The notes beneath the pieces are model-generated. The model was not told the DNA's origin. It saw only the letters and a list, made by a program, of their open reading frames with translations, and searched no databases. From assembly GCF_030144855.1 (NCBI RefSeq), contig NC_082710.1, positions 165,230,001 to 165,294,000 on the forward strand: DNA of 64,000 nt, written 5' to 3'. Origin of the DNA: Hypanus sabinus. Lineage: Eukaryota. A program made the translations under genes and the position numbers. Positions 1,111-51,440 of the stretch are shown one piece after another. The number at the start of each line of letters is the position of its first letter. Position 1 is the first letter of the stretch.

Positions 1111-2698
1111 TTGAGGGATGAAGGAGGGGAAGCCTGCAGAAGGTGGTGATCCCACGCTCCTGCTGCCCTTGTCCTTCTTGGTGATTGAGGGGCAGGTTTA
1201 GGAAATACTGTTAGAGTGGCTAAGGTGAGTAAGTGTGGACCATTTTGTTAATGGTACGTACTGCCGTTCCTGTACGTTGGTGGTGATTCCCAGATACTGA
1301 GGTTGAGGACACTGTTGCAGCTGTGCTGAACAACTGGTTGGGGATATTGTCACACCACGGATTCGGCAGTGCAGCAGATTCGGCAATTGCGCTTGTGGAT
1401 ATGTACGTGTCAGCTCACACAGAGACATCCAAGCATGAGCAGCATCAATCTGATGCCTGACATTGTCTAATCAGATTTAGAGTCGTGGATTGTCAATAAG
1501 AAAGAGTACCTTGCCCACTTCCCAGCTTTTGCCCATAAACAAACAAGATGTAGTCTTACTCTTTTTTACACATTAAAAATAGATCAAAACCAGTGCTGAA
1601 ATTAAGGGAGTTCAAGGTCATGTTATCACCAATTGAATCAGTGTCTTGTTACATTACGTGTGTGGAGAACAGAACACTCTTTGTCTCTTGACTTTCAATG
1701 GGATGGATATTAGTTCCACTGCCTCCATGATAGAAAGCACAAGATAGGCTTTCAATTGACTAAAAACACAAAGGTTTTCAGATGCCCAGTAGTGAATATT
1801 TCAGTTACATCTGAGTCAAACCGTGCCTTGCTTAGTAAGAGAAAATCTGAAGTCGCTTTACCCAGTCAACATGAGGTAATGAAGCTGGAAACTTGTACAG
1901 GCACAGTGCAACCAGTAGTAAATGCACTTCCACCTCTTCGTATTACTAATCCCAATGCGGAGCTACCCATGTTAGAATCAAAATATCAATCTCGTGTTAG
2001 CCATACAGTTAAATAACAATAAACTTGAAATTGAACTTGAACCACCTGCGAGTGGAAGGATCATTAAAGAGTGCTTATACAACTGCTTTACACATCATGG
2101 ATAAGATTTCTGTCATTTCCCCTCTCTGTAGGCAGGATGCAAGGCACCAGATAGCAGTAATATGCAGATGTGTATTTCTCCCCATTGCCTGGGCCAATCA
2201 TTTCTCATGCTCAGAAATGGATCATATTGGGCTCTTGCCATGCAGACCTCAAGATATTGTGTGGCATATTGTGTACAGTTTGGTAGCAATTATGTCCAAA
2301 GCAGGCAGGGATGTTTTGGTAATCAGCTGGTGTTTCCGCTTTCACAGCAAGGTAAGAGAAAGTTCAGCTTGTGTTTGTTATAAGGAAAATTAGAATGATT
2401 AACTTCTTTGATGAAGAAGCATAGCAGGGGTGAGATCAATGTAACTCATAACCTCTTTCTCCTCCTCTGTTGTACTTCCAAATGATGCATGAATGGAGTT
2501 TCGAATGGCATTCTACAAGACAGAATTGACTTGTTAGCCAAGTTAAGGCCAATGGGATAGAAGAGAAAGTGGCAGCACGATCACAGGCCGCAATAATGTA
2601 TGAAGACTGGAGGTGAGTCTATAGAAATACAAGGAAAGCTGAAAATAGTTGGTAGGTCAGTCAGCTCCAGCAAAGAGTCAAATAGAGTTAAGGGTTGT

Positions 2699-3371
2699 TG
2701 TGCTGTCTTTACGACAATTATTTAGTTTATAATATTTTCGCTTAGTAATTCATTCAATAGTATTTTCTAGTTAGAATTAGAAGTGTTTAAAGTATATTCA
2801 TTGCATGTAAAATATATCGGCATGCGATGACGTCACATCCGGTTTCGCCGCGTCTTGTGGGAAAACACCGGTTTGAAATTAGCGCGAGGGTGGGGGCTTT
2901 CCACGAGGCTCACCTGAGCAGAAGTTGTTTGCAGGCATGAGAAATCACAGTGAGAGCAACGCTGTAAGTTAATAGATAATCGACATATTGAACTAAGATG
3001 TTAATGCCGATCCTGTTAGAAGTAACGACGGTAGATAATGTTTATGCTTTCGTTAGTTAAAGAGTCGCGGATAGTTTGCATGGAAGTGTATTTAAAGTAG
3101 TCAATGGAGCAGGTAAACTCTCCCTGTATACTGCACCTTAGTGTAATGTAGTTATAGTCACCTTTGCAAGTATTTACACTTGAAACGTGATATTAAGGAA
3201 GGAACAAATACTGTATCAATCTTGTATTGTTTTATCAACAGTTTTCACCATATGTTAATGTGAAGAGTGAACAGTAAATGGTTAATCTTACTGCGATCTG
3301 GTTTCATTGACTGTGGTTTATCTCGACGTTAAATTCGACGTTATCACTTACACGCGAAGGAGAACGTTACA
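2699..3371 (+). repeat. 5' LTR of BEL element
   Basis: TGTGCTGTCTTTACG...GAGAACGTTACA; direct repeat of 6749-7421 with 2 substitutions counted by eye. Confidence 0.97.
2828..2835. promoter_or_regulatory. Full CRE/ATF palindrome TGACGTCA in BEL LTR (second copy 6878-6885)
   Basis: Exact consensus in the CpG-rich part of both LTRs; function not shown. Confidence 0.45.
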
Positions 3372-3385
3372 GTGAAAAAGCGGCA

Positions 3386-3595
3386 TTATCAGGTGTTTCA
3401 AGTGCTGCAATGTCAGCTCAATCCAGCATCAAGTCGACGCCGCCCAGCGGCAAGGGCAGTAAACCGACATCAAGTAAGCCCACCCAGGCGTTATCAGGTG
3501 TTCCAAGTGCTGCAATGTCAGCTCGATCCGGGATCAAGTCGATGGCGCCCAGCGACAAGGGCAGTAAACCGACATCAAGTAAGTCCACACAGGCA
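3386..3595 (+). repeat. 105-bp tandem duplication spanning the BEL Gag start
   Basis: TTATCAGGTGT...AAACCGACATCAAGTAAG units start at 3386 and 3491 (35-codon period). Confidence 0.9.
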
Positions 3596-6500
3596 AGAGC
3601 CAAGGCAGAAGCCGCCAAGGTGCGACTGCATTACGCCAAACAAGAAGCAGTTTTGAAAATGAAACTGGCCACCAAAGAAGCCGTAATCCAGAAAGAAAGG
3701 GCCGCCAGAGAAGCCGAAAGGGCCGCCAGACAAAGAGATGAGGCTGCCAGACAAAGAGAAGAGGCCGCCAGAGAAGCCGAAACCCAGTTGGAAATGACAA
3801 AAATATCGACAGAGTTGCAAGTGCTGCAGCGAGAAAGAGAAGAAGAAGCTGCCATGGTGGAAGCAGAGTACATAGAAGAAGCTGAAGGGTCGCGTGATCT
3901 GACCGAAACAAGTTCTGCTTTAGAAAGGACCAGACTGGAACGCACGAGCGACTATGTACAATATCAAGCAGACAGGCAGGCTCGTCTCCCCTCTCCATAC
4001 CTATTCGATAACTTCCCCAGCTACGAGGAAGAGAATTTACCCTCGCGGCTCCGCGATGAAGTCAAGAATGAAAGAGCTGACAACCGATATTCTTTGACAC
4101 CAAAGTTACAAAGTTCGATGCGAAGAGACGCGGAGGTTGAATCCAGGATGGCAAATTCCATGAGAAACGTGCGTTCTCAGTCATATAGGCGACAACGTAC
4201 TTCTCCAGCCCGCATGCCGCTTGCAGCCGATCCCACGCTGCAGTATTTAGCACGACGGGATCTCATCACTTCGGGACTGTACCAGTTTGACGATAAACCC
4301 GAAAATTACCGTGCTTGGCACTCCACATTCACCAACGTGATCGACGGGGTCCAGCTCAGTGCAACCCAAAGGTTGGACCTTATGGCGAAATGGCTGGGGA
4401 AAGAATCACGCGACCAGGTGAGACGCATGCATTCAGTGTACATCAACAAACCCGAGCTAGCCTTAAGCGAAGCGTGGGAGAGACTTTGGGAGAGATATGG
4501 GGCCCCCGACATTATTGAAGCGGCGCTATATCGACGTCTGGAAAACTTTCCTAAGGTGTCAGCCAAAGACCACTTTAAGTTAAGAGAATTCGGAGATTTA
4601 CTCATGGAGATCCAAGGCGCCAAAGAAGATGGCTATTCAGCTGGTCTAGTATACCTAGATACTCCATCCGGGATTAGACCAATTGTGGACAAACTTCCAT
4701 TTGGGCTGCAGGACAAGTGGCTGACTGTTGCCTCAGAGTACAAGGAAGAACACGGTGGTCGATTTCCTCCCTTTGAGCACCTCACTGAGTTTGTGCGCAA
4801 GGAGGCGAAGAGGCGAAACGACCCTAGCCTCGTAGGTCCAGGAAGCAGTTCGATTTACACCAAGCCAGGTAGATCCTCTTCGAATGTTTTCAACATTGAT
4901 AAACCCGTGTCAGTGCTCAAGACCGAAGCCCTTACAACTAACAACGACCCTGGCAAGTATTGTCCGTTGCATAACAAACTTCACCCCCTGAAAGCATGCA
5001 GAATGTTTAGGGAAAAACCCCTTGAAGAGAGGATGGCTCTTCTCAAGGAGAAAAGAATATGTTTTAGATGTTGTTCCTCAACCTCTCACCTCGCCAGAGA
5101 GTGTACGATCGCCGTGAAGTGTCCGGAATGTGATAGCACGGATCACGTCGGGGCCATGCATCCCGACCTGTCACCGCAAACGGAGAGCGCTCCTTCACCC
5201 CCACAACAGGACGGCGGGGAGGGAGAGGCTGACTCTAGGTCAACAGCTGTCAGCACGAACTGTACAGAAGTTTGCGGTCAAGCTCAGTCAAGTCGTTCTT
5301 GTTCCAAGATCTGCCTCACTAAGGTGTACCCTAAAGGAGCCAAAGACAAGGCCATCAAAGCCTATGTGATTCTGGACGATCAGAGCAATCGTTCACTAGT
5401 CAGTCCAGAGTTCTTTAAATTGTTCAACATTGAGAGTGAGCGGTTCCCATACTACCTCAAAACTTGCTCAGGCAACATGGAAACCCAAGGAAGGAAGGCA
5501 GAAGGCATCCAGATCGAGTCCCTGGATGGTAAAGTCGTCATCTGTCTCCCTCCGCTCTTAGAGTGCAATGAAATCATGAATAACCGCGCTGAGATCCCGA
5601 CACCAAGTGCGGTGCTACACCAGCCGCATCTCCACCACATCGCCAAACACATCCCAGAACTGGATCCGAAAGCGGAAATACTCCTGCTATTAGGAAGAGA
5701 TGTAATGCAGGTACACAAGGTTAGGCAGCAGGTCAATGGACCACACGACGCCCCCTTTGCACAACGCTTGGATCTAGGCTGGGTGGTGATAGGAGGGGTG
5801 TGCCCTGAAGACGTACACAAACCGATGGTTAACACACTCAAGACCAATGTGCTAGAGAGTGGCCGCCATTCAATCTTTCAACCCTGCCCGAGTGTCCCGT
5901 GCATCAAGGAAGCACAACAAGGCGTTAACAAGCGCGAGGCAAGCGACGAGTCGCTGGGCCAGTCAGTCTTCGCTCTAACGAAGTATGACAACAAACTTGC
6001 ACAATCAGCTCAAGATACCATTTCTTTAAAAACCAAAGACACCAAGGTCTTCAGAGATGAAGCAAATAATGGGGTTGCCCCACTGCCTATCAGAGAACCA
6101 TGCCAGCGCTCACCAGATAACAAAGAGCAGGCAGTCAAACGGTTCACGTCCTTACGGAAAACCCGGAAAGGGAAACCTGAGATGCAGCAACACACCCGAT
6201 TGGCCCACGAGGTACTGTGCACCCTAATGGCAGAGGTCACAGCCATTATGAACTCACGACCACTCCTGCCTGTGTCCTCCAACCCAGAAAACCCCTTCAT
6301 CCTTTCGCCATCAATGCTCCTTACACAGAAGGCAGGAGCACCTCCTCCACCAGGAGACTTTTCAGACAAGGATTTGTACACAAAGCAATGGAGACAAGTC
6401 CAGGCTCTGGCAAATCAGTTCTGGTCCCGCTGGAGACAGGAATATCTACCTTTGTTGCAACAGAGACAAAAGTGGACAGAACCCCACAGGAATCTTCAAG

Positions 6501-6691
6501 TTGGAGACTTAGTCCTGCTCAGGGACAAGCAAATCGCTCGCAACAGCTGGCCAACGGCCAGAATCACTGCTACATTCCCTATCGAGGATGGACATGTCAG
6601 GAAGATCGAATTGAAGACTACCGACCAAGGCGATGTGAAAATTTACCAAAGGCCAGTTACAGAAGTTATTCTACTTCTACCCAATGACTGA
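3410..6691 (+). CDS. BEL/Pao Gag-protease fused in frame to integrase C-terminus (1093 aa)
   Basis: Coiled coil; DUF1759-like Gag (FDDKPENYRAWHSTF); Zn knuckles CPLHNKLHPLKAC, CFRCCSSTSHLAREC, CPECDSTDH; aspartic protease YVILDDQSNRSLV; then KPEMQQH joined directly to TRLAHEVLCTLMAEVTAIMNSRPL and a DUF5641-like tail (FWSRWRQEYL...VGDLVL...RPVTEV). Confidence 0.92.
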   Translation: MSAQSSIKSTPPSGKGSKPTSSKPTQALSGVPSAAMSARSGIKSMAPSDKGSKPTSSKSTQARAKAEAAKVRLHYAKQEAVLKMKLATKEAVIQKERAAREAERAARQRDEAARQREEAAREAETQLEMTKISTELQVLQREREEEAAMVEAEYIEEAEGSRDLTETSSALERTRLERTSDYVQYQADRQARLPSPYLFDNFPSYEEENLPSRLRDEVKNERADNRYSLTPKLQSSMRRDAEVESRMANSMRNVRSQSYRRQRTSPARMPLAADPTLQYLARRDLITSGLYQFDDKPENYRAWHSTFTNVIDGVQLSATQRLDLMAKWLGKESRDQVRRMHSVYINKPELALSEAWERLWERYGAPDIIEAALYRRLENFPKVSAKDHFKLREFGDLLMEIQGAKEDGYSAGLVYLDTPSGIRPIVDKLPFGLQDKWLTVASEYKEEHGGRFPPFEHLTEFVRKEAKRRNDPSLVGPGSSSIYTKPGRSSSNVFNIDKPVSVLKTEALTTNNDPGKYCPLHNKLHPLKACRMFREKPLEERMALLKEKRICFRCCSSTSHLARECTIAVKCPECDSTDHVGAMHPDLSPQTESAPSPPQQDGGEGEADSRSTAVSTNCTEVCGQAQSSRSCSKICLTKVYPKGAKDKAIKAYVILDDQSNRSLVSPEFFKLFNIESERFPYYLKTCSGNMETQGRKAEGIQIESLDGKVVICLPPLLECNEIMNNRAEIPTPSAVLHQPHLHHIAKHIPELDPKAEILLLLGRDVMQVHKVRQQVNGPHDAPFAQRLDLGWVVIGGVCPEDVHKPMVNTLKTNVLESGRHSIFQPCPSVPCIKEAQQGVNKREASDESLGQSVFALTKYDNKLAQSAQDTISLKTKDTKVFRDEANNGVAPLPIREPCQRSPDNKEQAVKRFTSLRKTRKGKPEMQQHTRLAHEVLCTLMAEVTAIMNSRPLLPVSSNPENPFILSPSMLLTQKAGAPPPPGDFSDKDLYTKQWRQVQALANQFWSRWRQEYLPLLQQRQKWTEPHRNLQVGDLVLLRDKQIARNSWPTARITATFPIEDGHVRKIELKTTDQGDVKIYQRPVTEVILLLPND

Positions 6692-6748
6692 TTAAGAGAC
6701 TAAGTTTGTACTCTGCTCATTGTGACCTTACGAAGGTCAAGCGGGGAG

Positions 6749-7421
6749 TGTGCTGTCTTTACGACAGTTATTTAGTTTATAATATTTTCGCTTAGTAATT
6801 CATTCAATAGTATTTTCTAGTTAGAATTAGAAGTGTTTAAAGTATATTCATTGCATGTAAAATATATCGGCATGCGATGACGTCACATCCGGTTTCGCCG
6901 CGTCTTGTGGGAAAACACCGGTTTGAAATTAGCGCGAGGGTGGGGGCTTTCCACGAGGCTCACCTGAGCAGAAGTTGTTTGCAGGCATGAGAAATCACAG
7001 TGAGAGCAACGCTGTAAGTTAATAGATAATCGACATATTGAACTAAGATGTTAATGCCGATCCTGTTAGAAGTAACGACGGTAGATAATGTTTATGCTTT
7101 CGTTAGTTAAAGAGTCGCGGATAGTTTGCATGGAAGTGTGTTTAAAGTAGTCAATGGAGCAGGTAAACTCTCCCTGTATACTGCACCTTAGTGTAATGTA
7201 GTTATAGTCACCTTTGCAAGTATTTACACTTGAAACGTGATATTAAGGAAGGAACAAATACTGTATCAATCTTGTATTGTTTTATCAACAGTTTTCACCA
7301 TATGTTAATGTGAAGAGTGAACAGTAAATGGTTAATCTTACTGCGATCTGGTTTCATTGACTGTGGTTTATCTCGACGTTAAATTCGACGTTATCACTTA
7401 CACGCGAAGGAGAACGTTACA
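6749..7421 (+). repeat. 3' LTR of BEL element
   Basis: Direct repeat of 2699-3371, preceded by a purine tract. Confidence 0.97.
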
Positions 7422-8160
7422 GTTCTGGTCAATGACTCTGCATTTGAATTGGGTTCTGCAGTAGGATCACATCACTTCATGTTGGTCATGAGAAGGTAGA
7501 AGGAAATAACACCTTACCTAAGCACAAAACAACGCTGAAGGTAACAGATTTCACACATAGATTTAGTGATGTGGTCTCACATACAGGAACCAAGTGCTAC
7601 ATTTCGAAAGGAAACGGTGGCCAAAGTGATATGAACAAAGTGATAGAAATTTTTAAGCGGTGCAAGCACAGACATACTTTGGGCAAATGCACAAAAGACC
7701 TTGGAGAAAGCTGACATGCTCAAGGTACTTCAAGATCTCTGGTTGCATGTGAGCAGTGTGCTGATGTAGTGGGTGGTACAGCTGCCTCACAGTCTCATCC
7801 ATTCAAGTTTGGCCCTGTCCTCTGGTCACTAACTGCTGTATATTGCCTCCAGTGTGTGGGTGGCTGGTTAGAGAAGCAACAGCGTCCATGAGCCTATGAG
7901 AGAAAACAAGGCACAAGAAAAACAGTGTAGGATTGTGACTTATGGGATTTCTCTTAGACCAGATGGGTTAAGTGAAATAATTCTGAATATTTACAAGGCT
8001 TGTCACTTCCCATCTAGAGTGTGGTGGATGTAGCCATTTAGCAATGACTTTGGAGTGCTTCAGATCATTTGGGAGTTGCTATGGACCACTCTCATTATGT
8101 TGCATGGACAAACCGGAGTATCTGCACTGAATACAGGATTCTGTGAAAAATCCACTGAAG

Positions 8161-33720: not shown

Positions 33721-33789
33721 AATGGGATGAGCCCATTTGGACTGACTGTGGCCTTACTGTTCAGAAGTCCAGTATCCAATTGCAGGAAC

Positions 33790-34490
33790 AATGCAGATAC
33801 ATAATTCCCTAAAAGTGGCATCACAAGTAGATAGGGTAGTAAAGAGAGCTTTTGGTACATTGGCCTTTATAAATCAAAGTATTGAGTATAAAAGTTGGAA
33901 TGTAATGGTGAGGTTGTACAAGACATTGGTGAGACCAAATTTGGAGTATTGTGTGCAGTTTTGGTCACCTAATTACAGGAAGGATATTAATAAGGTTGAA
34001 AGAGTGCAGAGAAGGTTTACAAGGATGTTGCCGGGACTTGAGAAATTGAGTTACAGAGAAAGGTTGAATAGGTTAGGACTTTATTCCCTGGAGCATAGGA
34101 GAATGAGGGGTGATTTGGTAGAGGTGTATAAAATTATGATGGGTATAGATAGAGTGAATGCAAGCAGGCTTTTTCCACTCAGGCTAGGGGAGAAAAAAAA
34201 CAGAGGACATAGGTTCAGGGTGAAGGGGGAAAAGTTTAAAGGGAACATTGGGGGGGGGGGCTTCTTCACGCAGAGAGTGGTGGGATTGTGGAATGAGCTG
34301 CCAGATGCAGTGGTGAATGCAGGCTCACTTTTAACATTTAAGAAAAACTTGGACAGGTATATGGATGAGAGGGGTTTGGAGGGATATGGCCCAGGTGCAG
34401 GTCAGTGGGACTAGGCAGAAAAATGGTTCAGCACAGCCAAGAAGGGCCAAAAGGCCTGTTTCTGTGCTGTAATGTTCTATGGTTCTATGG
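33790..34490 (+). mobile_element. 5'-truncated young CR1
   Basis: 207-aa ORF 33791..34414 (LVRPNLEYCVQFWSP...FFTQRVVGLWNEL) with TTCTATGGTTCTATGG tail. Confidence 0.92.
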
Positions 34491-37414: not shown

Positions 37415-40400
37415 GGTTGGGGTGATGACGTAGAGTCGAGCCGTTGGGAATCCAGCTCCCTCGTAAAAAGTCATGAAATAGGGTTTAAATGAAGAGTTAA
37501 CAAATATCTACTAGAAACTATTTATAAGTAACTCAGGATTATCTTTTGATATGGCTCCTAAACCGAAACAGAAGAAAGCTACTACTTCGAAGACTGCGCA
37601 AATCGGCGGGGAAAAAGGCCTAACTTTCCCGGCAAAGTCTCGGACTCAAGTTGGATCTCCTCCCGGCGAAGTGCATGCCAGTTCTGATGATGCGGGACAG
37701 GAAGTTGCAGCAATGTCGGCGGTCTCTAAGAAGAAACGGTAAGAACAACGTATGCGCGAAAGTATGCGTGAACAGGTAAGAACAAAACTCCAAATCCCAG
37801 CTACGGCTGGAAGTGGAATCAGACTCTGGGAAATTCAGAGGAAAAGAAGGAAGAGATTAAAGGAGACATAAAAGATATCCTGAAATATATTGTGAATGAA
37901 TTAAAAGCGATAAGAAGGATGCAGAATAAACTCGATAATGTGGTGGAAAAACAAATGAAGATGGATAATAAAGTTAAAGAGATGGAAGTAAAAGTGGAAG
38001 AAAACACTGAAAGAATAGATAAGATAGAAGATAATAATCTTGCCTGGACAATAGAAAGAAAACGGATGTTGGAAAAAATAGATGCGCTTGAAAATTCTAG
38101 TAGACGAAATAATATCAAAATTGTTGGTCTTATGAAAGGTACAGAGGGAGAAAATCCAATAAAATTCTTTCAAGAATGGATTCCGAAAATGTTGGAAATG
38201 AAAGGAGGAAGCCAAGTAATTGAAATTGAAAGAGCACACAGAGTTTTAAGACCAAGACCTCAACAAGATCAATTTTGATAAAATGTTTAAGGTACCAAGA
38301 TAAAGAAATGATCTTGAAAGGAGCTATTCAAGGTGCTAAAAAGAGAAATGGGCCATTGATAATAGGAGGGAAAAGAGTTTTTTTTTAAATCCGGACATAA
38401 GTTACGATCTTTTGAAGAGGCGGAAGGAATTTAATCCAGTGAAAAAATCTTTATGGGAAAAGGGCTTAAATTTTTATTGAGCTATCCAGCAAAATTGATA
38501 ATTTTCCTGGATAACGAAGAAAGAAGATTTTTCATTGACTACCGGAAAGCGGTGAAATTTGTACAAGAACTACCTTATGTCCATGAAGAGGAGTAAAGAA
38601 TTATAGAAATGAAATGGACTAATGATGAAGACTGAAACAAGTTTGGACTTGACGGACATTTATATAAAAAGAATAGTTGAGTATTTGGAGTAAAGATATT
38701 AATTATTTTCTTTTTTTCTTCTTCACTAATATATTTTCTTTTTTTTTGCGGGGGAGCTGGAAGAGCTGCTGATCGATGGCTGCGAGTTTCGCGTGTACAA
38801 TCATGGCGATTGCCATGACCCGTAAAATGGGGGGGGGGTAATGTTGTGTTCTTTTTATTCGCAACATTAGTGGGGGGGTACTTTTTTTTCTTATATTAGT
38901 TATCTATCTTTTATTTTTCTGTTTTTTGCGTTGGGGAGAAACTCATAGAAACATGGAGAATTTTAAAGAGTTCCCAAGATATTATGAATGATTAATTTAC
39001 TTAATTTTTTAAGTTTTAATGTTAATGGAATTAATGGACCTGTGAAAAGAAAAAGAGTTTTAACATATATTAAGAAAATGAAAGGAGATATAGCTTTTTT
39101 TTTACAAGAAACACATTTAACAGAAACAACATAAGAAATTAAAGAGGGATTGGGTTGGAAATGTCATTGCAGCTTCATTTAATTCAAAATCGAGGAGTTC
39201 CAATTTTGGTTAATAAATCTTTACCAATTAAGATACAAAATGTAATAATTGATTCTGGGGGGAGATATGTGATGATACATTGTCAAATTTTTTCAGAATT
39301 ATGGACTTTTATGAACATTTATGCACCAATTGAAAATGATGCAAAATTCATACAAGAAGTTTTTTTGAACTTGGCTGATGCACATGATAAAATATTAATA
39401 GGTGGAGATTTTAATTTTTATTTAGATCCAGTTTTGGATAGGTCAACTAAAATTGCTATACAATCAAAAGTAATAAAACTAACTTTATCATTAATGAAAG
39501 ATTTAAACCTGATTGATATATGGAGGAAAATTAATCCAAGAGAAAGAGATTATTCATTTTATTCAAATAGACATAAAACTTACTCAAGGATTGATTTTTT
39601 TTATTATCAAAAAATATTCAAGATAGAGTGAAAATTGTGGAATATAAAGCAAGAATACTGTCAGATCATTCCCCCTTGTTAATGACAATGATAATGATGG
39701 ATAAGGAGGAATCGATTTATAGATGGAGATTTAATTCAATTTTATTAAAGTCAAGATTTTTGTGATTTTATGAAAAAACAGATACAATTTTTTTTGGATA
39801 CAAATTTACATTCAGTTGAGGACAAAATTGTATTATGGGAAGCGATGAAAGCATATATAAGGGGTCAGATTACACATTATACATCTAAAATTAAGAAGGA
39901 ATACATGGCAGAAATAGATCAATTGGAAAAAGATATCATAAAGTTAGAAACAGAATATCAAAGATATATGACAGAAGAAAAACAAAGACAACTTGGGGTT
40001 AATAAAAAAACTACAATAATACACTCCAGACATATCGTACAGAAAAAGTAATTATGAGAACTAAACAGAAATATTACGAATTAGGTGAAAGATCACATAA
40101 AATTCTTGCTTGGCAGTTGAAAACACAACAGGCTTCTAAAACAATAAATGCAATTAGAACAAGTGTAAATAAGGTTACTTATAAACCTTTAGAAATTAAT
40201 GAAACTTTAAAAAAAATTGATACTGAACTATATCAATCAGAATCACAAAATAAGATAGCTGAGATAGATAAATTTTTATCACAAATAACCCAAAATTAAA
40301 TTTGGAAGAACAGAAAGGATTAGATATGCCCTTTACATTAAAAGAGGTTGAAGAAGCGTTAGGATCACTTCAGAGTAATAAATCCCCAGGAGAAGATGGT

Positions 40401-42960
40401 TTTCCTCCTGAATTTTATAAAAAAATTTAAAGATTTATTAATTCCTCCTTTTATGGAATTAATATACCAAGTGGAAAGAATGCATAAACTCCCACAATCT
40501 TTTTTAACAGCGATCATAACTGTATTGCCAAAAAAAGATAGAGATCCTTTAAAATAGGCCTATTTCTTTCTTGATTACAGATTATAAAATAATAGCAAAA
40601 AATTTATCTAATAGAATATCTAAATATTTACCAAAATTAATACATATGGATCAAACAGGTTTTATTAAAAACACAATCAATGGATAATATAACCCGGTTA
40701 CTTAGTATAATTCATTTGGCACAAAAAAAGAGAGGAAATGAGTGTGGCAGTTGCTTTGGATGCAGAAAAAGCATTTGCTAGATTGGAATGAGATTTTTTA
40801 TTTAAGGTATTGGAAAAATATGAGTTAGGAAAATCTTTTATACAATGGATTAAAACCTTAAATACTAATCCTTGAGCTAAAGTAGTTACAAATGGTCAGT
40901 TTTTAACACCATTTTGCTTAACTAGGTCAACTAGACAAGGCTGCCCATTATCACCTGCTTTATTTGTATTGGCAATAGAACCATTAGCTGAATTAATTAG
41001 AACAGATTCAGACATTGGGGGCTTTAGAGTTAATCAAGAAGAATATAAGATTAATTTATTTGCTGATGATGTTTTGATTTATTTAACAAACCCATTGCAA
41101 TCTTGGCAAAGATTATCTTTTAGATTGGAAGAATATGGGAAAGTATCAGGGTATAAAGTAAATTGGGATAAAAGTGAAATTTTACCCTTTACTAAAGGAA
41201 ATTATAATCAATGTCAATTAGTAACTCAATTTCGATGGTCAATAAAGGGGATAAAATATTTAGGTATTAGATTTGATAATGATGTAAAAGCTTTATATAA
41301 ACAAAATTATTTGCCATTATTAAAAAAATAAGAGGATCTTGATAAATGGATGTTACCAATAATATTAATAGGTAGAGTTAATGCTGTAAAAATGAATATA
41401 TTTCCTAGATTGCAATATTTATTTCAAACTTTACCAATACAATTACCTCAAGTTTTTTCAAGAACTGAATAAATATGCAAGGAAATTTCTTTGGAAAGGA
41501 AAAATGTCAAGAATATCATTGGAAAAATTGACATGCAAATTTGATTTAGGAGGGTTACAACTTATAAATTTTAAGAATTATTATAAAGCAAATCAACTTA
41601 GATTTATAGCATCTTTTTTTGATGAAGAAAAACCGGCATACATTAGAATAGAATTAGATAAGATAGGAGAAAACATACCAGAAGGTTTTATATATAAATG
41701 GGAATCCAGATGGATAAGGGACAAAAAAGAATCTCCTATATTAAGACACTTGATTGATTTATGGAATAAGGTAAATATGGACGATGAGATAAGGAAATCT
41801 TTATTAGCAAAAAGTACTTTAATTCAAAATAGGCTTATTCCTTTTACAATGGATAATAAACTTTTACATAATTGGTTCCAAAAGGGGATTAAATATATAG
41901 GTGATTGTTTTGAAGGAGGTATATTGATGTCGTTTGATCAATTAAAAAATAAATATAAAATATCAAATAACACTCTTTTCTGTTATTTTCAATTAAAGGC
42001 TTATTTACGAGAAAAGCTGGGTCAAACAATGTTGATGCCAAAATCTAGTGAAATAGAAATATTAATTCAAAAAAGAAAAATTTAAAAAATTATATCTTGT
42101 ATGTATAATTTGATTCAAAAACAGACAATTAAATCAGGAATTCATAAATCAAGACAAAAATGGAAATCTGATTTGAATGTTAAAATTGATGGAAAAAACT
42201 GGTCAAGATTATGTTCTGATAGTATGAGAAATACAATAAATGTTTGTCTTAGATTAATACAATATAATTTTTTACATCAATTATATATAACACCACAGAA
42301 ATTAGATTAAATTCAAATATGTCTGACCAATGTTTTCGATGTAATCAAGAAATTGGTACTTTTTTTACATTCTACTTGGTCTTGTTTTAAAATTCAACCA
42401 TTTTGGATAAATCTAAGACTTTTATTGGAACAAATTACTGGAGTACAACTCCCACATAGTCCAGTATTATTTTTATTAGGAGACATTGAAGGGACAATAC
42501 CGAAACTTAAATTGAATAAGTATCAGAAAAAATTTATAAAAATTGCATTGGCAGTAGCCAAAAAAGTTATCGCAGTTACTTGGAAATCTGATTTATATTT
42601 AACTATGGATTGTTGGAATAATGAAATACATAGTTGTAAACAACTTGAAAAAATTACATACAATCTAAGAAATGAATATGATATATTTTTGAAAATTTGG
42701 CTCCCATACCTACAAAAGATAGGATTAAATACATAGGTCCTTTGAAGATAAAATTATAAAGTAATTGGGGAAAGTAGAAATAAATATTAAAATTATTTTG
42801 AACTCCATGGAGCATGTGGGGATCAACCGATATCCAGGCAATCTTTCTCTTTTTTTTCTTTAGATAAGGGTTAAGGGGGGGGAGGGTCAATATTATTTTT
42901 CTCACTTTTTATCATCACATTTATTCTTTGTAATTTTCTAAAATTTAATAAATAAATATA
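37415..42960 (+). mobile_element. Full-length (~5.5 kb) L1-clade LINE with disrupted ORFs
   Basis: CpG-rich 5' UTR; ORF1 ~37551-38596 (SRRNNIKIVGL, IEIERAHRVL); ORF2 ~38988-42736 (APE GGDFN/YSRIDF, RT INLFADDVLIYL); ~18-bp TSD TTTTTTAAAATTATATCC / TTTTTAAAAATTAGATCC; empty site visible at ~50090-50115. Confidence 0.95.
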
Positions 42961-43825
42961 TTTTTAAAAATTAGATCCTCAAAATGGACTGCCCAGTCCC
43001 CTGTATTTTAGTTTTGTTTTAAGTTAGTTTAGTGGATTTTTTTTTCTTTCTCAATAACAGAAATTTTGAGTCTTTTTTCTATGATAAGAGCTGTGGTTCT
43101 TTTTCTATTAGCTCAGTATTATACTATACATGATTTTGACAGTGTATATTACTTTCTTTGTACTTTGATTGAAATATGTATTTGAGATAATTTCTCCTCT
43201 GACTTGTATCTATTCTTATCTTTTGTAAATCAAAAAAGATCGAAAATGAAGAAAGTAGAACGAAGGCAGAATACAGATTTAATGGCAGGATTCTTATCGG
43301 GTTCAGAATCAGGTTCAGTATCACTGGCATATCACTTAGTACAATGGGATGGGTACAATGCAATACATGATAGTACAGAAAAAATAAATCAATTACAGTG
43401 AACACACACACACACACATACATACTCCTGAATCCCTCCTCTTGCACAAAAAAAGAAACGTAATGGATCAGGCGCACTGACCCCCAAGTCCCCCATCCCT
43501 CCTCCCACAGAAGAAAAAACTCAAAATGGATCAGACACATCGACCTTAAAATCCCACCCCCCTCCCCCTTAAAATTCCCGAGAAGATCCGGTGAAAAAAA
43601 ACTTAGTATAAGATCCATAAGACTAAAAATTCGAGTCTATATTTAGTCCCAAGTCCAAATCCAAAAACAGAAAAAACCTGGAGGTAGTCTCCGCGCCCAG
43701 ACGCAGCAGCAGGCCTTTCAGGTCCAGAGCAGCTGATCAAAAGACAAGCAGCTGGTGCTCACAAATAATTTTTTAAAAAAAGTGAAGTTGTGTTCTTGGA
43801 TTCAATGCCTATTTCAGAATCAGAT

Positions 43826-46230
43826 GGCAGAGGGACCTAACGATTTCAGAACAGACAGCAACGAGACTGAAGCCAGAAGAGTTAGAAATGTACTCACCAA
43901 ATACTTTGACTCATAATTTACTGAATAAATAAGTATACTTTGCCCTGTTTTCTGTCCTTGCTCATATGAAGGTGGTTTACCTATCTATTTATTTATTTAT
44001 TAAAATTTTTAATTAGTTTTTCAAAACATTTTACAAACTAAAAATCCCAAATCCCAATGAGGAACATTAAAACCGTGCAAAATTAAGCATACTTTAACAA
44101 TTTGCTACAAAGAAAGAGAATTTAGCAAATAAAAGCACCTAAATTAAAGACAAGTAAGCTTAGTGTCCTCCCCAAGCCCCACAAGAAGAAACAACAGCAA
44201 CTCCAGACCAACCACAACACAATATAGAGAGTATAAGTCAGGACAGCCAAACTCCCAGACTGTGAATACACTCAGCAACAGAGGATAATAATGCCTTCTA
44301 CCAGAGAAAAAAGGAGCTGAAAGCAAGGCGTTTACCTATTTATGCAAGTACTTCCCTGACAATAGATGTGTAACAGCCTAATGTAACATTGTATGGAAAT
44401 ACAAGATAACGCTGATGCAGACATGTTTTATACATTTAACAAGGTGCTTTATTAATGCAACAGAGTTAGTCAGTTTTTCAATGTTCGTCATCAGTCCCCT
44501 GTATTTTTGTTTTGTTTTAAGTTAGTTTAGTGGATTTTTTTTTCTTTCAATAACAGAAATATTGAGTCTTTTTTTTCTATGATAAGAGGAGCTGTGGTTC
44601 TTTTTCTATTAGCTCAGCATTATACTATACATGATTTTGACAAGATAATTTCCCCACTGACTTGTATCTACCCTTATTTTTTTAAATTAATAAAAAAGAT
44701 TGAAAATGAAGAAAGTGGTATTTGAAGTCAGAATACAGAGTTAATGGCAGGATTCTTATCAGGTCCAGAATCAGGTTCAATATCACTGGCATATGCCATG
44801 AAATTTGTTCACTTAGGGGTGGGTACAATGCAATATATGATAGTATACCAAAAAATAAATCAATTACAGTGAACATATACGTCTAGCCTCCTAAATCGCT
44901 CCTTCTGCACAAAAAAAACAAACAAAATGGGTCAGGTACATTGACCTTCAAATCCCACCCCACTCCCCCTTAAAAATCCCGAGAAGATCAGGCAAAAAAA
45001 AACACATAGTATAAAATCTATAAGACTTAAAAATCAAATCTATATATAGTCCAAAGTTCAAATCCAAAAACACAGGAAAAACCTGGAGGTGGTCTCCGCG
45101 CCCAGACGCAGCAGCCAAACTCCCAGACTGTGAATACACTCAGCAACAGAGGATAATAATGCCTTCTACCAGAAAAAAAAGCTGAAAGCAAGGCGTTTAC
45201 CTATTTATGCAAGTACTTCCCTGACAATAGATGTGTAACAGCCTAATGTAACATTATATGGAAATACAAGATAACGCTGATGTAGACATGTTTTATACAT
45301 TTAACAAGGTGCTTTATTAATGCAACAGAGTTAGTCAGTTTTTCAATGTTCGTCATCAGCCGGATCAATCTGTCCGTGAACTCCCTGTTGGTTGCCGCTG
45401 TACGCTCCAGTATTTGTTTTTTTTAGATTTAAGTTCTCCTGCGCGAGAGCCAACAGTTGTCCTTCTTTTTTGAGTTTTTCTAGTCTGTAACTACACAAAC
45501 GCGCACTTTTACGGTGAGATTTGAAACCAAACATGTCGCTTCTTTTCGGTAGATGAGTCCTGTGCATGCGCAGCAGGAGGAGATTCGCCGAAATCTCCGT
45601 TTCAGTGTGGATAGAGATCTTTTCAAAAACGCATAGTGTGGCCTTCTATCGTTTTAACGCGAAACCGGCGTTTTCAAAATTATCCGGTCTAGTGTGGATG
45701 TAGCCTAAATTTGCCATTGTATCAAGTGTGAGCTGTTGCCGTTCCTAGATATCCGTGTAAGATTACCCTGGGTTTTCCCATTATAACATGCAGTAAAAGG
45801 GGATGTTATATGTTACTTGAGGAAACCGTCCCCATTTGTTTGGGTTGTAGGGAGTGAACCCTCTCCAGACAACATGCTGGTCCCTGTGAATCCTAGACAA
45901 GAGATGTAGGTGTATTAGACATGGGCAATTTCCAAACACCTGCTGCAGCTAGGTAACCGTTAATAACATGAAATAAATCTTCCGGTCTGTAGCCTGCAAT
46001 TCTGAAAGGATGTCTTAAACTGAGTGCACTAGCACCGATGGTTAAGCACATAAATACATTAACATCTACCCTGAAGCTCCAGAGTCCAGTTGCATTACAA
46101 GTTGCAAATGAATAATGTAAAAGTTAAATTTATTTCCGTGAGAATGAGCTCTTTACAGCAGCAGCACAGTACATTACAAACATGGCGTATATAAATTACT
46201 GTTCACAAACATAAATTGATGTAAATTATA
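43826..46230 (+). repeat. Segmental duplication copy 2, left part (Harbinger copy with internal re-duplications)
   Basis: Matches 35272-36420; Harbinger right TIR ends at 45705 followed by TAA; 44490-45112 copies the 42990-43710 block; 45112-45360 recopies 44245-44490. Confidence 0.88.
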
Positions 46231-46689: not shown

Positions 46690-47234
46690 TCAGTTGGGCT
46701 TTTGCCACGGGTTTACATAGGCTTCTTCCTCTAGCTCTATTTCCCTTTGTAGGAGTACCTGAACAGGATCAGCTGGGGCCCCTGGTTGCATGACTTGTCT
46801 TGCCACCCGAGCTACTAGCTCCCGCAAGCAGGGGATCAGACATGGTAGCAGAAGGAGGACCATCAATCCCCCTCCTATAACCCCTAAAGAGGTTCGCCAC
46901 CAGCCTCCTTTCAACCATCCGTCCAGCCAGTCCCAATACCCCAGTGGCTTCCAGGTCTGTACGGGCACGTGGGCCAGTTTCCTTATTTTATCTGATATTT
47001 TTTGAACCACCTTTCCGTTGTCATCTATCTTTAAGCAGCAGTTGGTTAGATTAAACTTTCCACATACTCCTCCTTTTTGTTGTAGTCATAACATTTCTCG
47101 TTTACATGCGAGTGTGATACAAAGGACCCTGGAAAAACCGTCATGCCCACCCTTACCGTCGTCCTGCACTTATCACATCCCCCTTCAGCGCTTCTCAACA
47201 ATAGCAGTATATACATTACAGTCCCAAAGTTCAT
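46690..47234 (-). pseudogene. env: ERV env with large internal deletion (signal/SU start joined out of frame to TM C-terminus)
   Basis: ATG overlaps the pol TGA; MNFGTVMYILLLLRSAEG...; second frame [17 protein letters not shown]...[12 protein letters not shown]...TM helix [19 protein letters not shown]. Confidence 0.92.
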
Positions 47235-49620
47235 TCTGTCCGTCTTTTGAGCTTTAGCACCATCGGGTCTTCTCCCTGGACGCAAGTCCATTCTGCACCT
47301 TCTTCGGGCTTTACGGGTCCCTTGATTCTCGCGGCGTGGGTCCACCCTTTTTCTTTTGTCCTTACTGCGGCTTCGGTGGTCAGTAGCACCTGGAATGGGC
47401 CTTCCCACTGCGGCTGTAACTTCTCTGGCTTCCAAGTCTTAATCAGGACCCAGTCACCGGGCTGAGTTCGGTGGAGTGTGAAGTCCAGAGGTGGGGTTTG
47501 TGCGAGTAACCCCTTCCTGCGCAATTCTGCAAAAGAACGAGACAGTGCCTGTAAATAGTCCCTTACAAAGACATCTCCCCCTTGCAGGGAAGGATAGCCC
47601 TCCACCTTGTTCCAATATGGAAGGCCAAACAACATTTCATAAGGGGATACTCCTATATCTTTTCGAGGAGCCGTGCGGATTCTTAGTAGGGCCAGGGGTA
47701 GACACTTAGTCCAGGGTAGCTTGGTTTCCATCATTAGTTTTGTCAATTGCGTCTTCAAAGTACTGTTCATCCTCTCAACTCTTCCTGAGCTCTGAGGGTG
47801 CCAGGGGGTGTGCAGCTTCCACTGGATTCCTAAGGCGTCACAGATTAGCTGGTGTGTTTTTGAGGCAAAGTGTGTTCCCCTATCTGAATCAATAGACCCC
47901 ATTATTCCATATCTCGGGACTATATTTTCTAATAGGATCCGTGCCACTGTAGGGGCGTCCGCTTTAGTGGTTGGGAATGCTTCCACCCACCGAGTGAAGT
48001 GATCCACAATTACTAACAGGTACTTCCATCTCTGAACTTGTGGTAGTTCCGTAAAGTCTATTTGGATCCGATGGAACGGTCGGACGGCTAGTGTTTGTCC
48101 CCCCTTATGGGTGGCACGCATCATTTTCTTGTTTACCTTTTGGCAGGTGTAACAGCCCCACACCTCCTGTTGAGCTAGTGTGAATATCCCTTTCCAAACA
48201 TAGTCCCTTAGGATAGTGTCGCACATAGCTTGCACTCCCCAATGGCTTTGTTGGTGTAGTTGTTGCAGTATATGACGAGTTACTTCCTTATTCAGTACTT
48301 GCCGTCCGTCGGGGGTCTTCCACTCGCCTTCTGATGTTTGTCGGGCTCCCAGCTGGCTCATAGCGTCTATTTCTACTTGGGTGAAGACTGGTAGTTTGTT
48401 AAGCCCTTCCCTTATTGGTATCAGGGTTAGAAGTCGGACCGTTTTTTCCATTGCTGCCCGCTTGGCTTCTTCATCTGCGAGCCGGTTTCCTATTGCTTCC
48501 GGGGCTGTTCCTCGTTGATGTCCTGGAACGTGAACCACTGCAATTTCTTGAGGTAGTGTTAGAGCTTCCAGAGTCATGCTTATCATTTGTTCGTGAGCTA
48601 ATTCCCTTCCCCTGGCTGTTATCAACCCCCGTTCTTTCCAAATCTTTCCGAAGGTGTGTACCACTCCATAGGCATACTTAGAATCGGTGTATATAGTGCC
48701 TATTTTGTTTCTTAACAGTTGCAGTCCCCTCTGCAAAGCATATAGTTCACAAGACTGGGCTGACCAATTACCCGGGAGCCGGCCGGACTCCACCGTCTCC
48801 CTAGTCCTCCCGTTTATAATAGCATATCCACTGTGTCGTACCCCATTGATGCATCTGGAGGAGCCGTCGATATATAGTTCCTCGCCTTCAATTAGGGGAA
48901 CTTCTTGTAGATCTTCCCTACTTTTTGTCTGAAGGTCTGTTAGCTCCACGCAGTTATGCTCGGTTTCCTCCCCTGTTGATTCCCCGTATAAGAACTGTGC
49001 CGGGTTACAACTATTGTTCTTTTCAAAGCTTAAATCATCCCCGACCATCAGAATGGTTTCGTATTTCAGTATGCGAGAGTCCGTCAACCACCGCTGAGCT
49101 TTTTGGGCTAAGAGGGTGCTAACGGAGTGCGGGGTATACACCGTCATTCTTCCCCCAAAGGTTAATTTCCGTGCTTCTTCTACTAGTACGGCTGCTGCCG
49201 CTACGGCTTGTATGCACGTCGGCCATCCCCGGGATACCGGGTCTAACATTTTTGATAAAAAGGCCACAGGTTGCCGCTTTCCTCCTTTTTCTTGGGTTAG
49301 TACTCCTAACGCAGTTCCTTCATTGTTTGTTGCATACAGCTGAAAGGGCTTTTCCAGTGCTGGCAGTGTTAATACCGGGGCCCGAATTAGTTGCCCTTTT
49401 ATTTTCCTGAACTTCTGTTCTTCTTCTTCGGTCCAGCTGATTATTCCCCGGTCTTCCTTTGCCAATTTGTCATACATAAACTTCACCAGGGAGGTATAAT
49501 TCTCTATCCAAATCCGGCAATAGCCCACTAAGCCCAGAAATTGTCTTATTTCCTTCTTTGTCCTGGGAAGCGGTAGTTTAGTTATTCCCGCTATTCTTTC
49601 TGGGGTTATTTGGCGGTGAT
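47231..49620 (-). CDS. pol: ERV pol, 5'-truncated but stop-free: RT thumb/connection, RNase H, integrase
   Basis: RQFLGLVGYCRIW; RNase H LYIDGSS/SAQSCEL/YTDSKY/GNRLAD; IN HQQSH...CYTC, IQIDFT, IDSDRG, SSGRVERMN, WEGPF; RT palm, PR and gag absent. Confidence 0.96.
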
Positions 49621-51440
49621 TTTATACTATGTGTTTTTTTTGCCTGATCTTCTCGGGATTTTTAAGGGGGAGTGGGGTGGGATTTGAAGGTCAATGTACC
49701 TGACCCATTGATTTATTTTTTGGTATACTATCATATATTGCATTGTACCCACCCCTAAGTGAACAAATTTCATGGCATATGCCAGTGATATTGAACCTGA
49801 TTCTGGACCTGATAAGAATCCTGCCATTAACTCTGTATTCTGACTTCAAATACCACTTTCTTCATTTTCAATCTTTTTTATTAATTTAAAAAAATAAGGG
49901 TAGATACAAGTCAGTGGGGAAATTATCTTGTCAAAATCATGTATAGTATAATACTGAGCTAATAGAAAAAGAACCACAGCTCCTCTTATCATAGAAAAAA
50001 AAGACTCAATATTTCTGTTATTGAGAACGAAAAAAAAATCCACTAAACTAACTTAAAACAAAACAAAAATACAGGGGACTGGGCAGTCCATTTTGAGGAT
50101 ATAATTTAAAAAAAAGGAAAAATCCTTCTGGTCAAATCTAAAACTTCACAGAGAGGAAAAAAAGATTACCTAGAAAAGTCAAAAAAAATTAGATCATATG
50201 AAAATTTTGAATCAAAGGTCACCAGGTTTGCTCAAATTTAAAAGATGTACCAAACATCCAACTTCTAATTTTCTCCAAACTTAAACACGACATGATAGAG
50301 GGGAGCCAGAAAAATAAAACAGTAGGTGAATTGGGATCCTTCCAATACAACAAAATAGCTCTCCTAGCCAATAAAGTTGAAAAAGCTATCATGCGTTGAG
50401 TGGAAGCAGGAACATTTCCCTCGTCCTTTGGAGTAATCCCAAGGATTGCTGTAAATGAATTAGGTCCAAACCTATGACTTCTGATAACGTTCTGAAAGCA
50501 TCTCTCCAAAAGTTATTTAACTTTATACAGGACCAAAACATATGAGTTAAGGTAGCCACCTCAGTGTTGCATCTATCACAGGTGGGATTTATATTAGAAA
50601 AAATATGCACTAATTTATAAGATAAATTAGTTCCACTTTCTAAAGTGTTATCACTTAGCATTTTTCCAGATTGCACTCTATTGGCTATTTCTTAGCCCAA
50701 GTTTCTGCATCTTATCAATGTCCTAGTTTAAACTGTAGCTGCTCAGCCAATTCTCTGTTTCCTACCAATGTCCTGTTGAAACCGACAGCAACCTTTTTTG
50801 TTATCCACAACAGCAGTCAATTTTATGTCATGTGCAAACTTACTAATCACCCTTCCACTCCCTCATCTATGTCGTAAAAATCACTGTGGCTAAGAGTCCC
50901 AGAACAGACCCCTGTGCATCACTACTTGTCATTGACCTTTGGTGTTTCACTGGGTATTTTCCATCTACTGCCACCCTCTTCGTTCTGTGGGCAAGTCATT
51001 TCTGACTCCACATAGCCAATGTTCCTTGGATCCTTGAATCTTCAGAGTTCCTGAATGAGCTTTGTCAAATGCTTTACCAAAATCCATATACATGACATCC
51101 AATCTGCTACTTTTATCAAAGTGTTCTGTCCCTTCCTTGAAGAATTGTCTGCCCTTTACAAATCCATGCTGACTAATCATGATCAAACCATCTCTTCCAA
51201 ATGCTAATAAATTCTGTCTCTAAGAATCTTCTCCAACAGTTTGTCCAACACTGATATAAGATCACGGGTCCATAATTCCTAAAAATTATCCTTATTACCT
51301 TTCTTAAACAAAGGAAAAACATTTACCACCCTCCAATACCCATCCCTATTCTTGATAGGCCTGTAAGTCCCTAAATCTGTGTCTCAATTTGCACTAACAT
51401 CATTTTGTTATTTTTATTGCGTCATATAATTTATGTATAA
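49618..51440 (-). repeat. Segmental duplication copy 2, right part (inverted)
   Basis: Reverse complement of 36420-37414 joined without the L1 to the 42975/44490-type block; keeps ~370 bp of old L1 ORF2 end that copy 1 has lost. Confidence 0.92.

What the first reader, a model, noticed from the sequence alone, without database searches (positions are those of the whole stretch)
2699..7421. Young BEL/Pao element whose single intact ORF keeps Gag+protease but has RT, RNase H and the integrase core deleted in frame
Seen: LTRs differ at only ~2/673 positions, a 5-bp TSD is present, and the 1093-codon ORF has no stops, yet it jumps at ~6190 from the pre-RT spacer (KPEMQQH) to the last integrase helix (TRLAHEVLC...). 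Known: BEL polyproteins run Gag-PR-RT-RH-IN, so 2-3 kb is missing. Inference: a non-autonomous subfamily that makes its own capsid and protease and borrows RT/IN in trans. The CAGCAACAC (QQH) at the junction may be microhomology. Why the IN C-terminal tail is kept in frame is unexplained.
Basis: partly seen in the sequence, partly recalled or inferred. Interest (0 to 1): 0.7.

Follow-up and report, generated by a model that had tools for sequence, protein, structure and literature searches.

The report
Stingray retrotransposon swarm of in-frame deletions
This is one of about a thousand copies of a ray jumping gene that lack the copying and inserting enzymes, so they likely borrow them from intact relatives, swap parts with those relatives, and appear to need an unbroken reading frame rather than a working protein.

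Summary
The element is a young BEL/Pao LTR retrotransposon lacking 2,607 bp (RT, RNase H, integrase core) in frame. The junction motif occurs 1,090 times in the genome against 106 for the undeleted motif. Copies have distinct target sites, intact ~2,000-codon partners share the LTR, and the same gap occurs in another stingray genus. About half of the junction copies have also lost capsid and protease through two further in-frame deletions. In young copies like this one, Gag and protease match intact elements (dS 0.04-0.06) while the junction-side stretch is old (dS 0.52), which indicates re-acquisition by recombination. In triple-deleted copies, amino-acid changes are inherited freely but stops are not (0 of 130 shared against 7 of 153 singleton variants). 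The likely constraint is an open frame in cis, with the integrase tail a passenger. Gag-protease-only elements (wheat Sabrina/WHAM) and in-frame fusions that help in cis (mouse IAP 1Δ1) are known. This is a new variant of that kind.

The parts
2694..2698 (+). left target-site copy (GTTGT)
   Evidence: matches the right copy at 4 of 5 bases
2699..3371 (+). 5' LTR, 673 bp, TG...CA
   Evidence: 92.7-99.1% identical to the LTRs of 16 of the 17 Gag+Pol copies fetched, about 85% to the other
3372..3389 (+). sequence at the primer-binding-site position; lacks the usual TGG start
   Evidence: same or one-base variant in the copies printed; primer not identified
3382..3595 (+). 105-bp tandem duplication covering the ORF start; present once or twice among copies
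3410..6691 (+). single ORF, 1,093 aa: Gag - protease - RT N-terminal remnant - integrase C-terminal tail
3575..3982 (+). long N-terminal helices with a variable 21/33-bp repeat region; kept in all deletion classes
   Evidence: predicted helices at residues 56-191; repeats
4075..5178 (+). module A (1,104 bp: capsid and zinc knuckles); present here, deleted in frame in many sister copies
   Evidence: 66 of 149 bounded copies; deleted motif 542 times, intact motif 426 times in the genome
4232..4816 (+). capsid-like helical domain
   Evidence: DUF1759 at E 4.9e-5, below its cut-off; helical bundle with pLDDT about 90; weak Foldseek match to PNMA2 capsid, E 0.015
4960..5160 (+). Cys/His zinc-knuckle region
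   Evidence: motifs read from the sequence; no Pfam hit in this copy
5303..5794 (+). retropepsin-type protease (ILDDQS motif)
   Evidence: beta domain; best Foldseek rows are HIV-1 protease, E 4e-3, probability 1.0, none at E<=0.001
5336..5908 (+). module B (573 bp, includes the ILDDQS motif); present here, deleted in frame in many sister copies
   Evidence: 62 of 149 bounded copies, plus 2 scored as 576 bp
5670..6182 (+). old junction-linked patch: 82-93% mean identity to intact copies, against 93-100% over most of the rest
   Evidence: sliding identity; tree of the last 267 nt
6183..6191 (+). deletion C junction and 9-nt same-frame microhomology; 2,607 bp missing
6192..6688 (+). integrase C-terminal tail; DUF5641 at about 6383-6676; catalytic core absent
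   Evidence: DUF5641 at E 5.8e-28; the rve region and WERMIG motif lie in the deleted part
6739..6748 (+). polypurine tract
   Evidence: read from the sequence
6749..7421 (+). 3' LTR, 673 bp, 2 differences from the 5' LTR
7422..7426 (+). right target-site copy (GTTCT)

Best explanation
This is a young copy of a BEL/Pao LTR retrotransposon lacking RT, RNase H and the integrase core, one of about a thousand such copies, which are likely copied and inserted by intact partners, likely recombine with them in shared particles, and likely need an open reading frame rather than the fusion protein itself. Shown: the deletion, its amplification to independent sites, intact partners with the same LTR, three in-frame deletion modules in six combinations, and a mosaic of current Gag/protease/LTR sequence around an old junction patch. 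Inferred: one old template-switch deletion at a same-frame 9-nt microhomology; later loss of capsid and protease; re-acquisition of Gag and protease from intact RNA, giving copies like this one; and selection against inherited stops because the RNA must be translated to near its 3' end, either to escape nonsense-mediated decay or because packaging is tied to translation. The integrase tail would be a passenger that carries the frame to its stop.
For: Counts: 1,090 versus 106 motifs. On one chromosome, 38 of 47 young-type element starts are followed by the junction, 6 by intact pol, 3 unassigned. TSDs are perfect in 38 of 42 and 49 of 57 bounded copies, 45 of the 49 distinct. Nine of 18 young intact copies are open over about 1,930-2,050 codons. 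Classes among 149 bounded copies: ABC-deleted 59, C 51, intact 25, AC 5, BC 4, Gag/protease-deleted with pol 3, other 2. Mosaic: dS of young C copies versus intact is 0.057 in capsid, 0.044 in protease and 0.52 before the junction. Gag of one deleted and one intact copy is identical over 1,080 nt, the C label needs 14 changes on the Gag tree, and 11 C copies nest inside the ABC clade on the junction-side tree. The 53-bp tail deletion occurs in four classes. Frame: deletions of 2,607, 1,104, 573, 207 and 27 bp are all multiples of three, and A, B and the 207-bp one have only 1-2 nt microhomology in most copies. In 54 young ABC copies, stops are 0 of 130 shared against 7 of 153 singleton variants (p 0.013), while private shared changes run 50 nonsynonymous to 8 synonymous.
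Against: The frame rule has exceptions: two stop codons are shared by 3 and 2 young C copies, and an 11-bp frameshift in the protease region recurs in 3 older C copies. The stop-only test is not significant for C copies (p 0.085). The stronger values with frameshifts (p 0.0003 and 0.005) use a cut-off chosen after seeing the 53-bp tail deletion. Shared variants are not independent events, and three sets of copies with the same TSD were not removed. If few master copies made most insertions, an open frame may reflect those founders only. A sequence-tolerant role for the fusion protein is not excluded. Translation, decay and co-packaging were not observed.
Confidence: 0.55

Rival explanations
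1. Semi-autonomous Gag donor (first reader; Sabrina/WHAM/Quinta model): Gag+protease copies make their own particles and add capsid to the family pool, and are selected for that.
For: This copy keeps capsid- and protease-like folds. 18 of 34 young C copies are open to the natural stop. Older junction copies (LTR divergence up to 7.8%) mostly retain Gag and protease. Private shared capsid variants in young C copies are 0 nonsynonymous to 3 synonymous (few). The single ORF shows no stop or frameshift between gag and pol, so extra Gag could be useful (inference).
Against: 68 of 119 bounded junction copies lack capsid, protease or both and are as young. The capsid-deleted motif outnumbers the intact one, 542 to 426. 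Gag in young C copies comes from the intact pool. Private shared protease variants are 6 to 5, no clear difference from singletons. This can hold as a side effect, but it is not needed for mobility.
Confidence: 0.17
2. IAP 1Δ1-type: the in-frame fusion protein itself acts in cis, for example by its N-terminal helices joining helper Gag and bringing its own RNA along.
For: The N-terminal helical region and the tail survive in all deletion classes. Precedent in mouse IAP 1Δ1 (passages of PMC6466679 and PMC7411935). It also predicts depletion of inherited stops.
Against: No residue constraint in ABC copies: private shared variants are 12 nonsynonymous to 1 synonymous in the two helices and 20 to 1 in the tail. 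A tail frameshift is carried by 14 copies. The helices also change fast in intact copies, so this test has little power there.
Confidence: 0.15
3. No selection on the frame: deletion C is in frame because its microhomology is, and open frames merely reflect young copies from a few founders.
For: The 9-nt microhomology is in frame on both sides. Median LTR divergence is under 1.1% in all classes. Some shared stops and frameshifts exist.
Against: Four further recurrent internal deletions are in frame, three with only 1-2 nt homology. 130 shared substitutions include no stop in ABC copies. Longer skips in other organisms, 2,877 and 93 nt, are also in frame, while a 140-nt frameshifting one lies in the tail.
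Confidence: 0.12
4. A one-off deletion that happened after insertion at this locus.
For: None beyond the single locus.
Against: 106 exact 31-mer matches and 1,090 degenerate matches, distinct TSDs, and the same gap in Hemitrygon proteins.
Confidence: 0.01

Closest known systems
BEL/Pao (Belpaoviridae) LTR retrotransposons of fish, e.g. the Danio 1,912-aa polyprotein P0013
   Same: TG...CA LTRs, 5-bp TSD, single gag-pol ORF, DUF1759 and DUF5641; 55% identity over the front part and 75% over the tail
   Different: RT, Peptidase_A17/RNase H and integrase core are missing in frame, and deleted forms outnumber intact ones about ten to one
Wheat RLG_Sabrina_SA, RLG_WHAM and RLG_Quinta (passages of PMC9744471, PMC11302176)
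   Same: Gag or Gag-protease ORF without RT and integrase, long coexistence with an autonomous partner, shorter derivatives, recombination by template switching
   Different: Those are plant Gypsy elements, and Quinta's Gag forms its own lineage. Here Gag is shared with the current intact pool and an integrase tail stays fused
Mouse IAP 1Δ1 (passages of PMC6466679, PMC7411935; the primary paper was not held)
   Same: In-frame internal deletion giving a gag-pol fusion ORF; non-autonomous and more successful than the full-length element; translation matters in cis
   Different: IAP is an endogenous retrovirus with one 1.9-kb deletion, and the fusion protein is credited with the effect. Here three deletion modules reassort and residues look unconstrained
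Plant TR-GAG and barley BARE-2 (passages of PMC4350172)
   Same: TR-GAG keeps only Gag; BARE-2 lacks Gag but keeps pol, like the two pol-intact copies here that carry deletions A and B
   Different: Both forms, and the double loss, occur here within one recombining family
Poliovirus defective interfering genomes (passages of PMC8496841)
   Same: Natural deletions are in frame, and the defective genome uses helper proteins
   Different: RNA virus; those genomes still make their replication proteins

Membership tests
BEL/Pao LTR retrotransposon | TG...CA LTR pair with 5-bp target-site duplication | tested here: met
   (4 of 5 bases here); 49 of 57 perfect in sister copies
BEL/Pao LTR retrotransposon | single ORF in the order Gag-PR-RT-RH-IN with Pao-specific domains | tested here: met
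   met by intact copies of the family; this copy keeps the order with the middle missing
BEL/Pao LTR retrotransposon | placement by an RT phylogeny | not tested
   assignment rests on PF05380, PF18701 and PF03564 and on 77-80% pol identity of intact copies to P0013
BEL/Pao LTR retrotransposon | tRNA primer-binding site after the 5' LTR | tested here: inconclusive
   conserved sequence without the usual TGG start; longest complement in the LTR is 8 nt; not compared with a tRNA set
non-autonomous LTR retrotransposon | lacks essential enzymes yet is amplified to independent sites | tested here: met
non-autonomous LTR retrotransposon | autonomous partner with shared LTR ends, PBS region and PPT | tested here: met
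non-autonomous LTR retrotransposon | mobilisation in trans shown by experiment | not testable with these tools
   inferred only
semi-autonomous Gag(-Pro) elements (Sabrina_SA, WHAM, Quinta, TR-GAG) | intact Gag(-protease) ORF without RT and integrase | tested here: met
   true of this copy and of 18 of 34 young C copies
semi-autonomous Gag(-Pro) elements (Sabrina_SA, WHAM, Quinta, TR-GAG) | own Gag lineage maintained apart from the partner | tested here: not met
   Gag of young copies is interleaved with intact Gag
IAP 1Δ1-type | in-frame gag-pol fusion ORF made by an internal deletion | tested here: met
IAP 1Δ1-type | fusion protein promotes retrotransposition in cis | tested here: inconclusive
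   inherited stops are depleted but residues are unconstrained; no experiment
spliced subgenomic RNA retrocopy | GT...AG ends of the missing segment | tested here: not met
   the ends of the skipped part are not GT...AG in any register within the microhomology

The most novel reading that the evidence does not exclude
A vertebrate BEL/Pao family has become a defective-interfering-like swarm. An old pol deletion, shared across stingray genera, persists as a small hitch-hiking junction patch that keeps renewing its LTR, Gag and protease from whichever intact element is active. Further in-frame deletions reassort as modules, including a complementary Gag-less, pol-intact form, and the one conserved rule is translation to the 3' end. 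Similar cuts in teleost BEL proteins would make this a recurrent route for the superfamily.
Probability: 0.35. Interest if true: 0.7.

Novelty: new variant of a known kind. Interest (0 to 1): 0.52.

Why it matters
Non-autonomous LTR elements with open gag frames are usually read as capsid donors. This family, with about a thousand datable copies in six structural classes, allows protein function, reading-frame continuity and recombination with the helper to be told apart. It suggests that an intact ORF or a low Gag dN/dS in such elements need not mean that the protein is used. It also offers a natural, genome-scale test of the cis-translation effect reported for mouse IAP 1Δ1, in another superfamily and host. 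In practice it explains a set of 600-1,100-aa 'uncharacterized' or 'plectin-like' stingray gene models as transposon products.

Tried and rejected
Locus-specific deletion: rejected. Spliced-RNA origin: rejected, no GT...AG ends. Plain Gag dN/dS as the deciding test: computed but confounded by recombination and CpG codons. Tail kept as a functional domain: not supported. Self-priming from the LTR: only 7-8 nt complements. Expression: no RNA holder listed, which says nothing either way; contig depths were not used as copy numbers. PDB sequence search with the Danio polyprotein: nothing below E 0.1. Foldseek on the whole model: no row at E<=0.001; no second structural aligner result was obtained. 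Earlier scan notes: none by sequence or by words. Eight paper searches listed no description of such a BEL family in rays; Repbase and Dfam could not be searched and may hold it. Saito et al. 2008 was not held. 27 of 176 candidate elements had no two LTR ends found and were dropped from the class counts; many of these are probably older or truncated.

Full report
Observation. The element spans 2699-7421. Its LTRs are 673 bp and differ at two positions; the ORF runs from ATG 3410 to stop 6691, 1,093 codons; a polypurine tract precedes the 3' LTR. The target-site copies read GTTGT and GTTCT, 4 of 5 alike. Pfam finds DUF5641 and, below its cut-off, DUF1759. A model folded on 68 sequences (mean pLDDT 68.9, pTM 0.35) shows long N-terminal helices, a helical capsid-like bundle and a beta domain. 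Foldseek gives weak matches to HIV-1 protease (E 4e-3) and the PNMA2 capsid (E 0.015), none at E<=0.001. Against a 1,912-aa Danio BEL polyprotein the protein jumps from about residue 878 to 1747, skipping RVT_1, Peptidase_A17 and rve. The nearest named proteins are Hypanus sabinus gene models at 90-95% identity, so the host is probably a dasyatid stingray.

Amplification and partner. A degenerate junction motif has 1,090, the matching undeleted motif 106, and the reversed controls 0. I fetched 175 loci: 20 and 60 from the exact list, 55 junction hits on C1 not fetched before, 20 RNase H hits chosen for long open frames, and 20 from the undeleted list. With the window, 149 of 176 could be bounded by two LTR ends. 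TSDs are perfect in 38 of 42 and 49 of 57 junction copies, 45 of the 49 distinct. Intact copies of 7.2-7.6 kb share the LTR, up to 99.1%; 9 of 18 young ones are open throughout (this set is biased towards long frames). Against one of them the gap is 2,607 bp in all 119 bounded junction copies. TGCAGCAAC lies on both sides in the same frame in older-type intact copies; most current ones share only 4 nt. The ends are not splice sites.

The family is modular. Two more deletions recur: A, 1,104 bp (capsid and zinc knuckles), and B, 573 bp (protease motif). Classes: ABC 59, C 51 (the window's type), intact 25, AC 5, BC 4, Gag/protease-deleted with pol 3 (two share junctions A and B, one has another deletion), other 2. 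On C1, of 47 young-type element starts, 22 are ABC, 9 C, 5 BC or similar, 2 AC, 1 AB, 5 intact and 3 unassigned, classed by distance. Genome-wide the A-deleted motif occurs 542 times and the intact one 426. Own capsid and protease are therefore not needed for amplification. LTR divergence exceeds 2% in 14 of 48 C copies (maximum 7.8%) and 5 of 59 ABC copies, which suggests that C came first.

Recombination. Between young C and young intact copies dS is 0.057 in capsid, 0.044 in zinc knuckles and protease, 0.087 in the tail, and 0.52 in the 225 nt before the junction. The window copy is 93-100% identical on average to intact copies over LTR, Gag and most of the protease, but 82-93% over the last ~500 nt before the junction. 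On the Gag tree, C and intact copies interleave (14 changes; shuffled mean 18.9) and one deleted and one intact copy are identical. On the junction-side tree, 11 C copies including the window nest inside the ABC clade with high support, although the bootstrap had not fully settled. The simplest reading is that these copies regained Gag and protease from intact RNA by template switching, which implies co-packaging (inferred). All junction copies listed keep the older codon just before the junction, in line with one origin; repeated deletion at the same microhomology in the past is not excluded.

Other species. Three Hemitrygon akajei protein clusters (1, 3 and 32 members) lack the same 869 residues; two also lack 31 residues of the tail. 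In 8 public contig sets laid on an intact copy, the same joint appears in 3 (coded organisms A, B, D), loose ends at the junction in 4 more (C, G, H, I), and a longer in-frame skip of 2,877 nt in D and E. These were laid at 80% likeness with short sides, so they are supporting hints. Whether the sharing is by descent or by transfer was not tested.

What is conserved. Recurrent deletions of 2,607, 1,104, 573, 207 and 27 bp are multiples of three; A, B and the 207-bp one have 1-2 nt of microhomology in most copies. In 54 young ABC copies, stops make up 7 of 153 singleton and 0 of 130 shared codon variants (p 0.013); adding frameshifts upstream of the tail's second half gives 13 against 0 (p 0.0003, cut-off chosen after seeing the data). 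Variants shared among ABC copies and absent from intact ones are 50 nonsynonymous to 8 synonymous, 20 to 1 in the tail and 12 to 1 in the N-terminal helices. A 53-bp frameshift in the tail is carried by 14 copies of four classes and moves the stop only about 110 nt upstream. Against this reading: in 34 young C copies two stops are shared (by 3 and 2 copies; stop-only p 0.085), an 11-bp frameshift recurs in 3 older C copies, shared variants are not independent, three same-TSD sets were kept, and the repeat-rich first part of the ORF was left out of the main test.

Mechanism. Shown: deletion, amplification, partner, modules, mosaic, and a deficit of inherited stops in ABC copies. Inferred: mobilisation in trans, co-packaging, and a need in cis for translation to near the 3' end, by escape from nonsense-mediated decay or by translation-coupled packaging. 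I put about 0.9 on the non-autonomous, recombining part and 0.55 on the whole statement. Rivals are capsid donation (0.17), a cis-acting fusion protein (0.15) and chance (0.12).

Comparison with what is known. I read passages only. Wheat Sabrina_SA and WHAM encode Gag-protease without RT and integrase (PMC9744471). Quinta keeps its own Gag lineage and recombines by template switching (PMC11302176). TR-GAG keeps Gag and BARE-2 lacks it (PMC4350172). Mouse IAP 1Δ1 has an in-frame gag-pol fusion that helps in cis (PMC7411935, PMC6466679; the primary paper was not held). Poliovirus defective genomes carry in-frame deletions (PMC8496841). A Culex survey notes defective elements in general (PMC3286476). 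Eight searches listed nothing on this family; repeat databases and supplements were not seen and may bear on novelty.

Verdict. Real, well supported as a non-autonomous BEL/Pao derivative, and richer than first read: a recombining set of in-frame deletion forms. New variant of a known kind; interest 0.52.

Noticed in passing
window 47231-49621 (-): 796-codon open stretch of an endogenous retrovirus pol: RNase H, integrase zinc finger, rve, MLV-type integrase C-terminus.
   Followed up: partly
window 3372-3389: The conserved sequence at the primer-binding position lacks the usual TGG start; the primer is unknown. The LTR-PBS motif occurs 879 times in the genome.
   Followed up: partly
L093, L095 (G000 C78, C1): Pol-intact copies that carry the same capsid and protease deletions as the triple-deleted class; L093 has identical LTRs and a 1,466-codon open frame, a BARE-2-like form.
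   Followed up: partly
P0077 (Sebastes), P0079 (Trematomus), P0093 (Xenopus), P0108: Distant BEL proteins that also jump from about residue 850-880 into the integrase region; P0077 lacks a net 869 residues at nearly the same place. Could be convergent deletions or gene-model introns.
   Followed up: partly
L032, L035, L036, L043, L113 and others: A short LTR variant of about 394 bp (positions ~266-543 missing) occurs in several structural classes, sometimes paired with a long LTR.
   Followed up: no
L031, L141, L180, L200, L215: Copies that look like tandem units sharing an LTR.
   Followed up: no
window 33746-34414, 61543-62193, 41396-42085, 54356-55027: Open stretches of 216-229 codons without Pfam hits (three of the four scanned); by recall they resemble CR1-type and L1/Tx1-type LINE ends and a hAT transposase fragment.
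   Followed up: no
window 38001-44000: AT-rich stretch (GC 27-32%) with positive GC skew at 38-42 kb.
   Followed up: no
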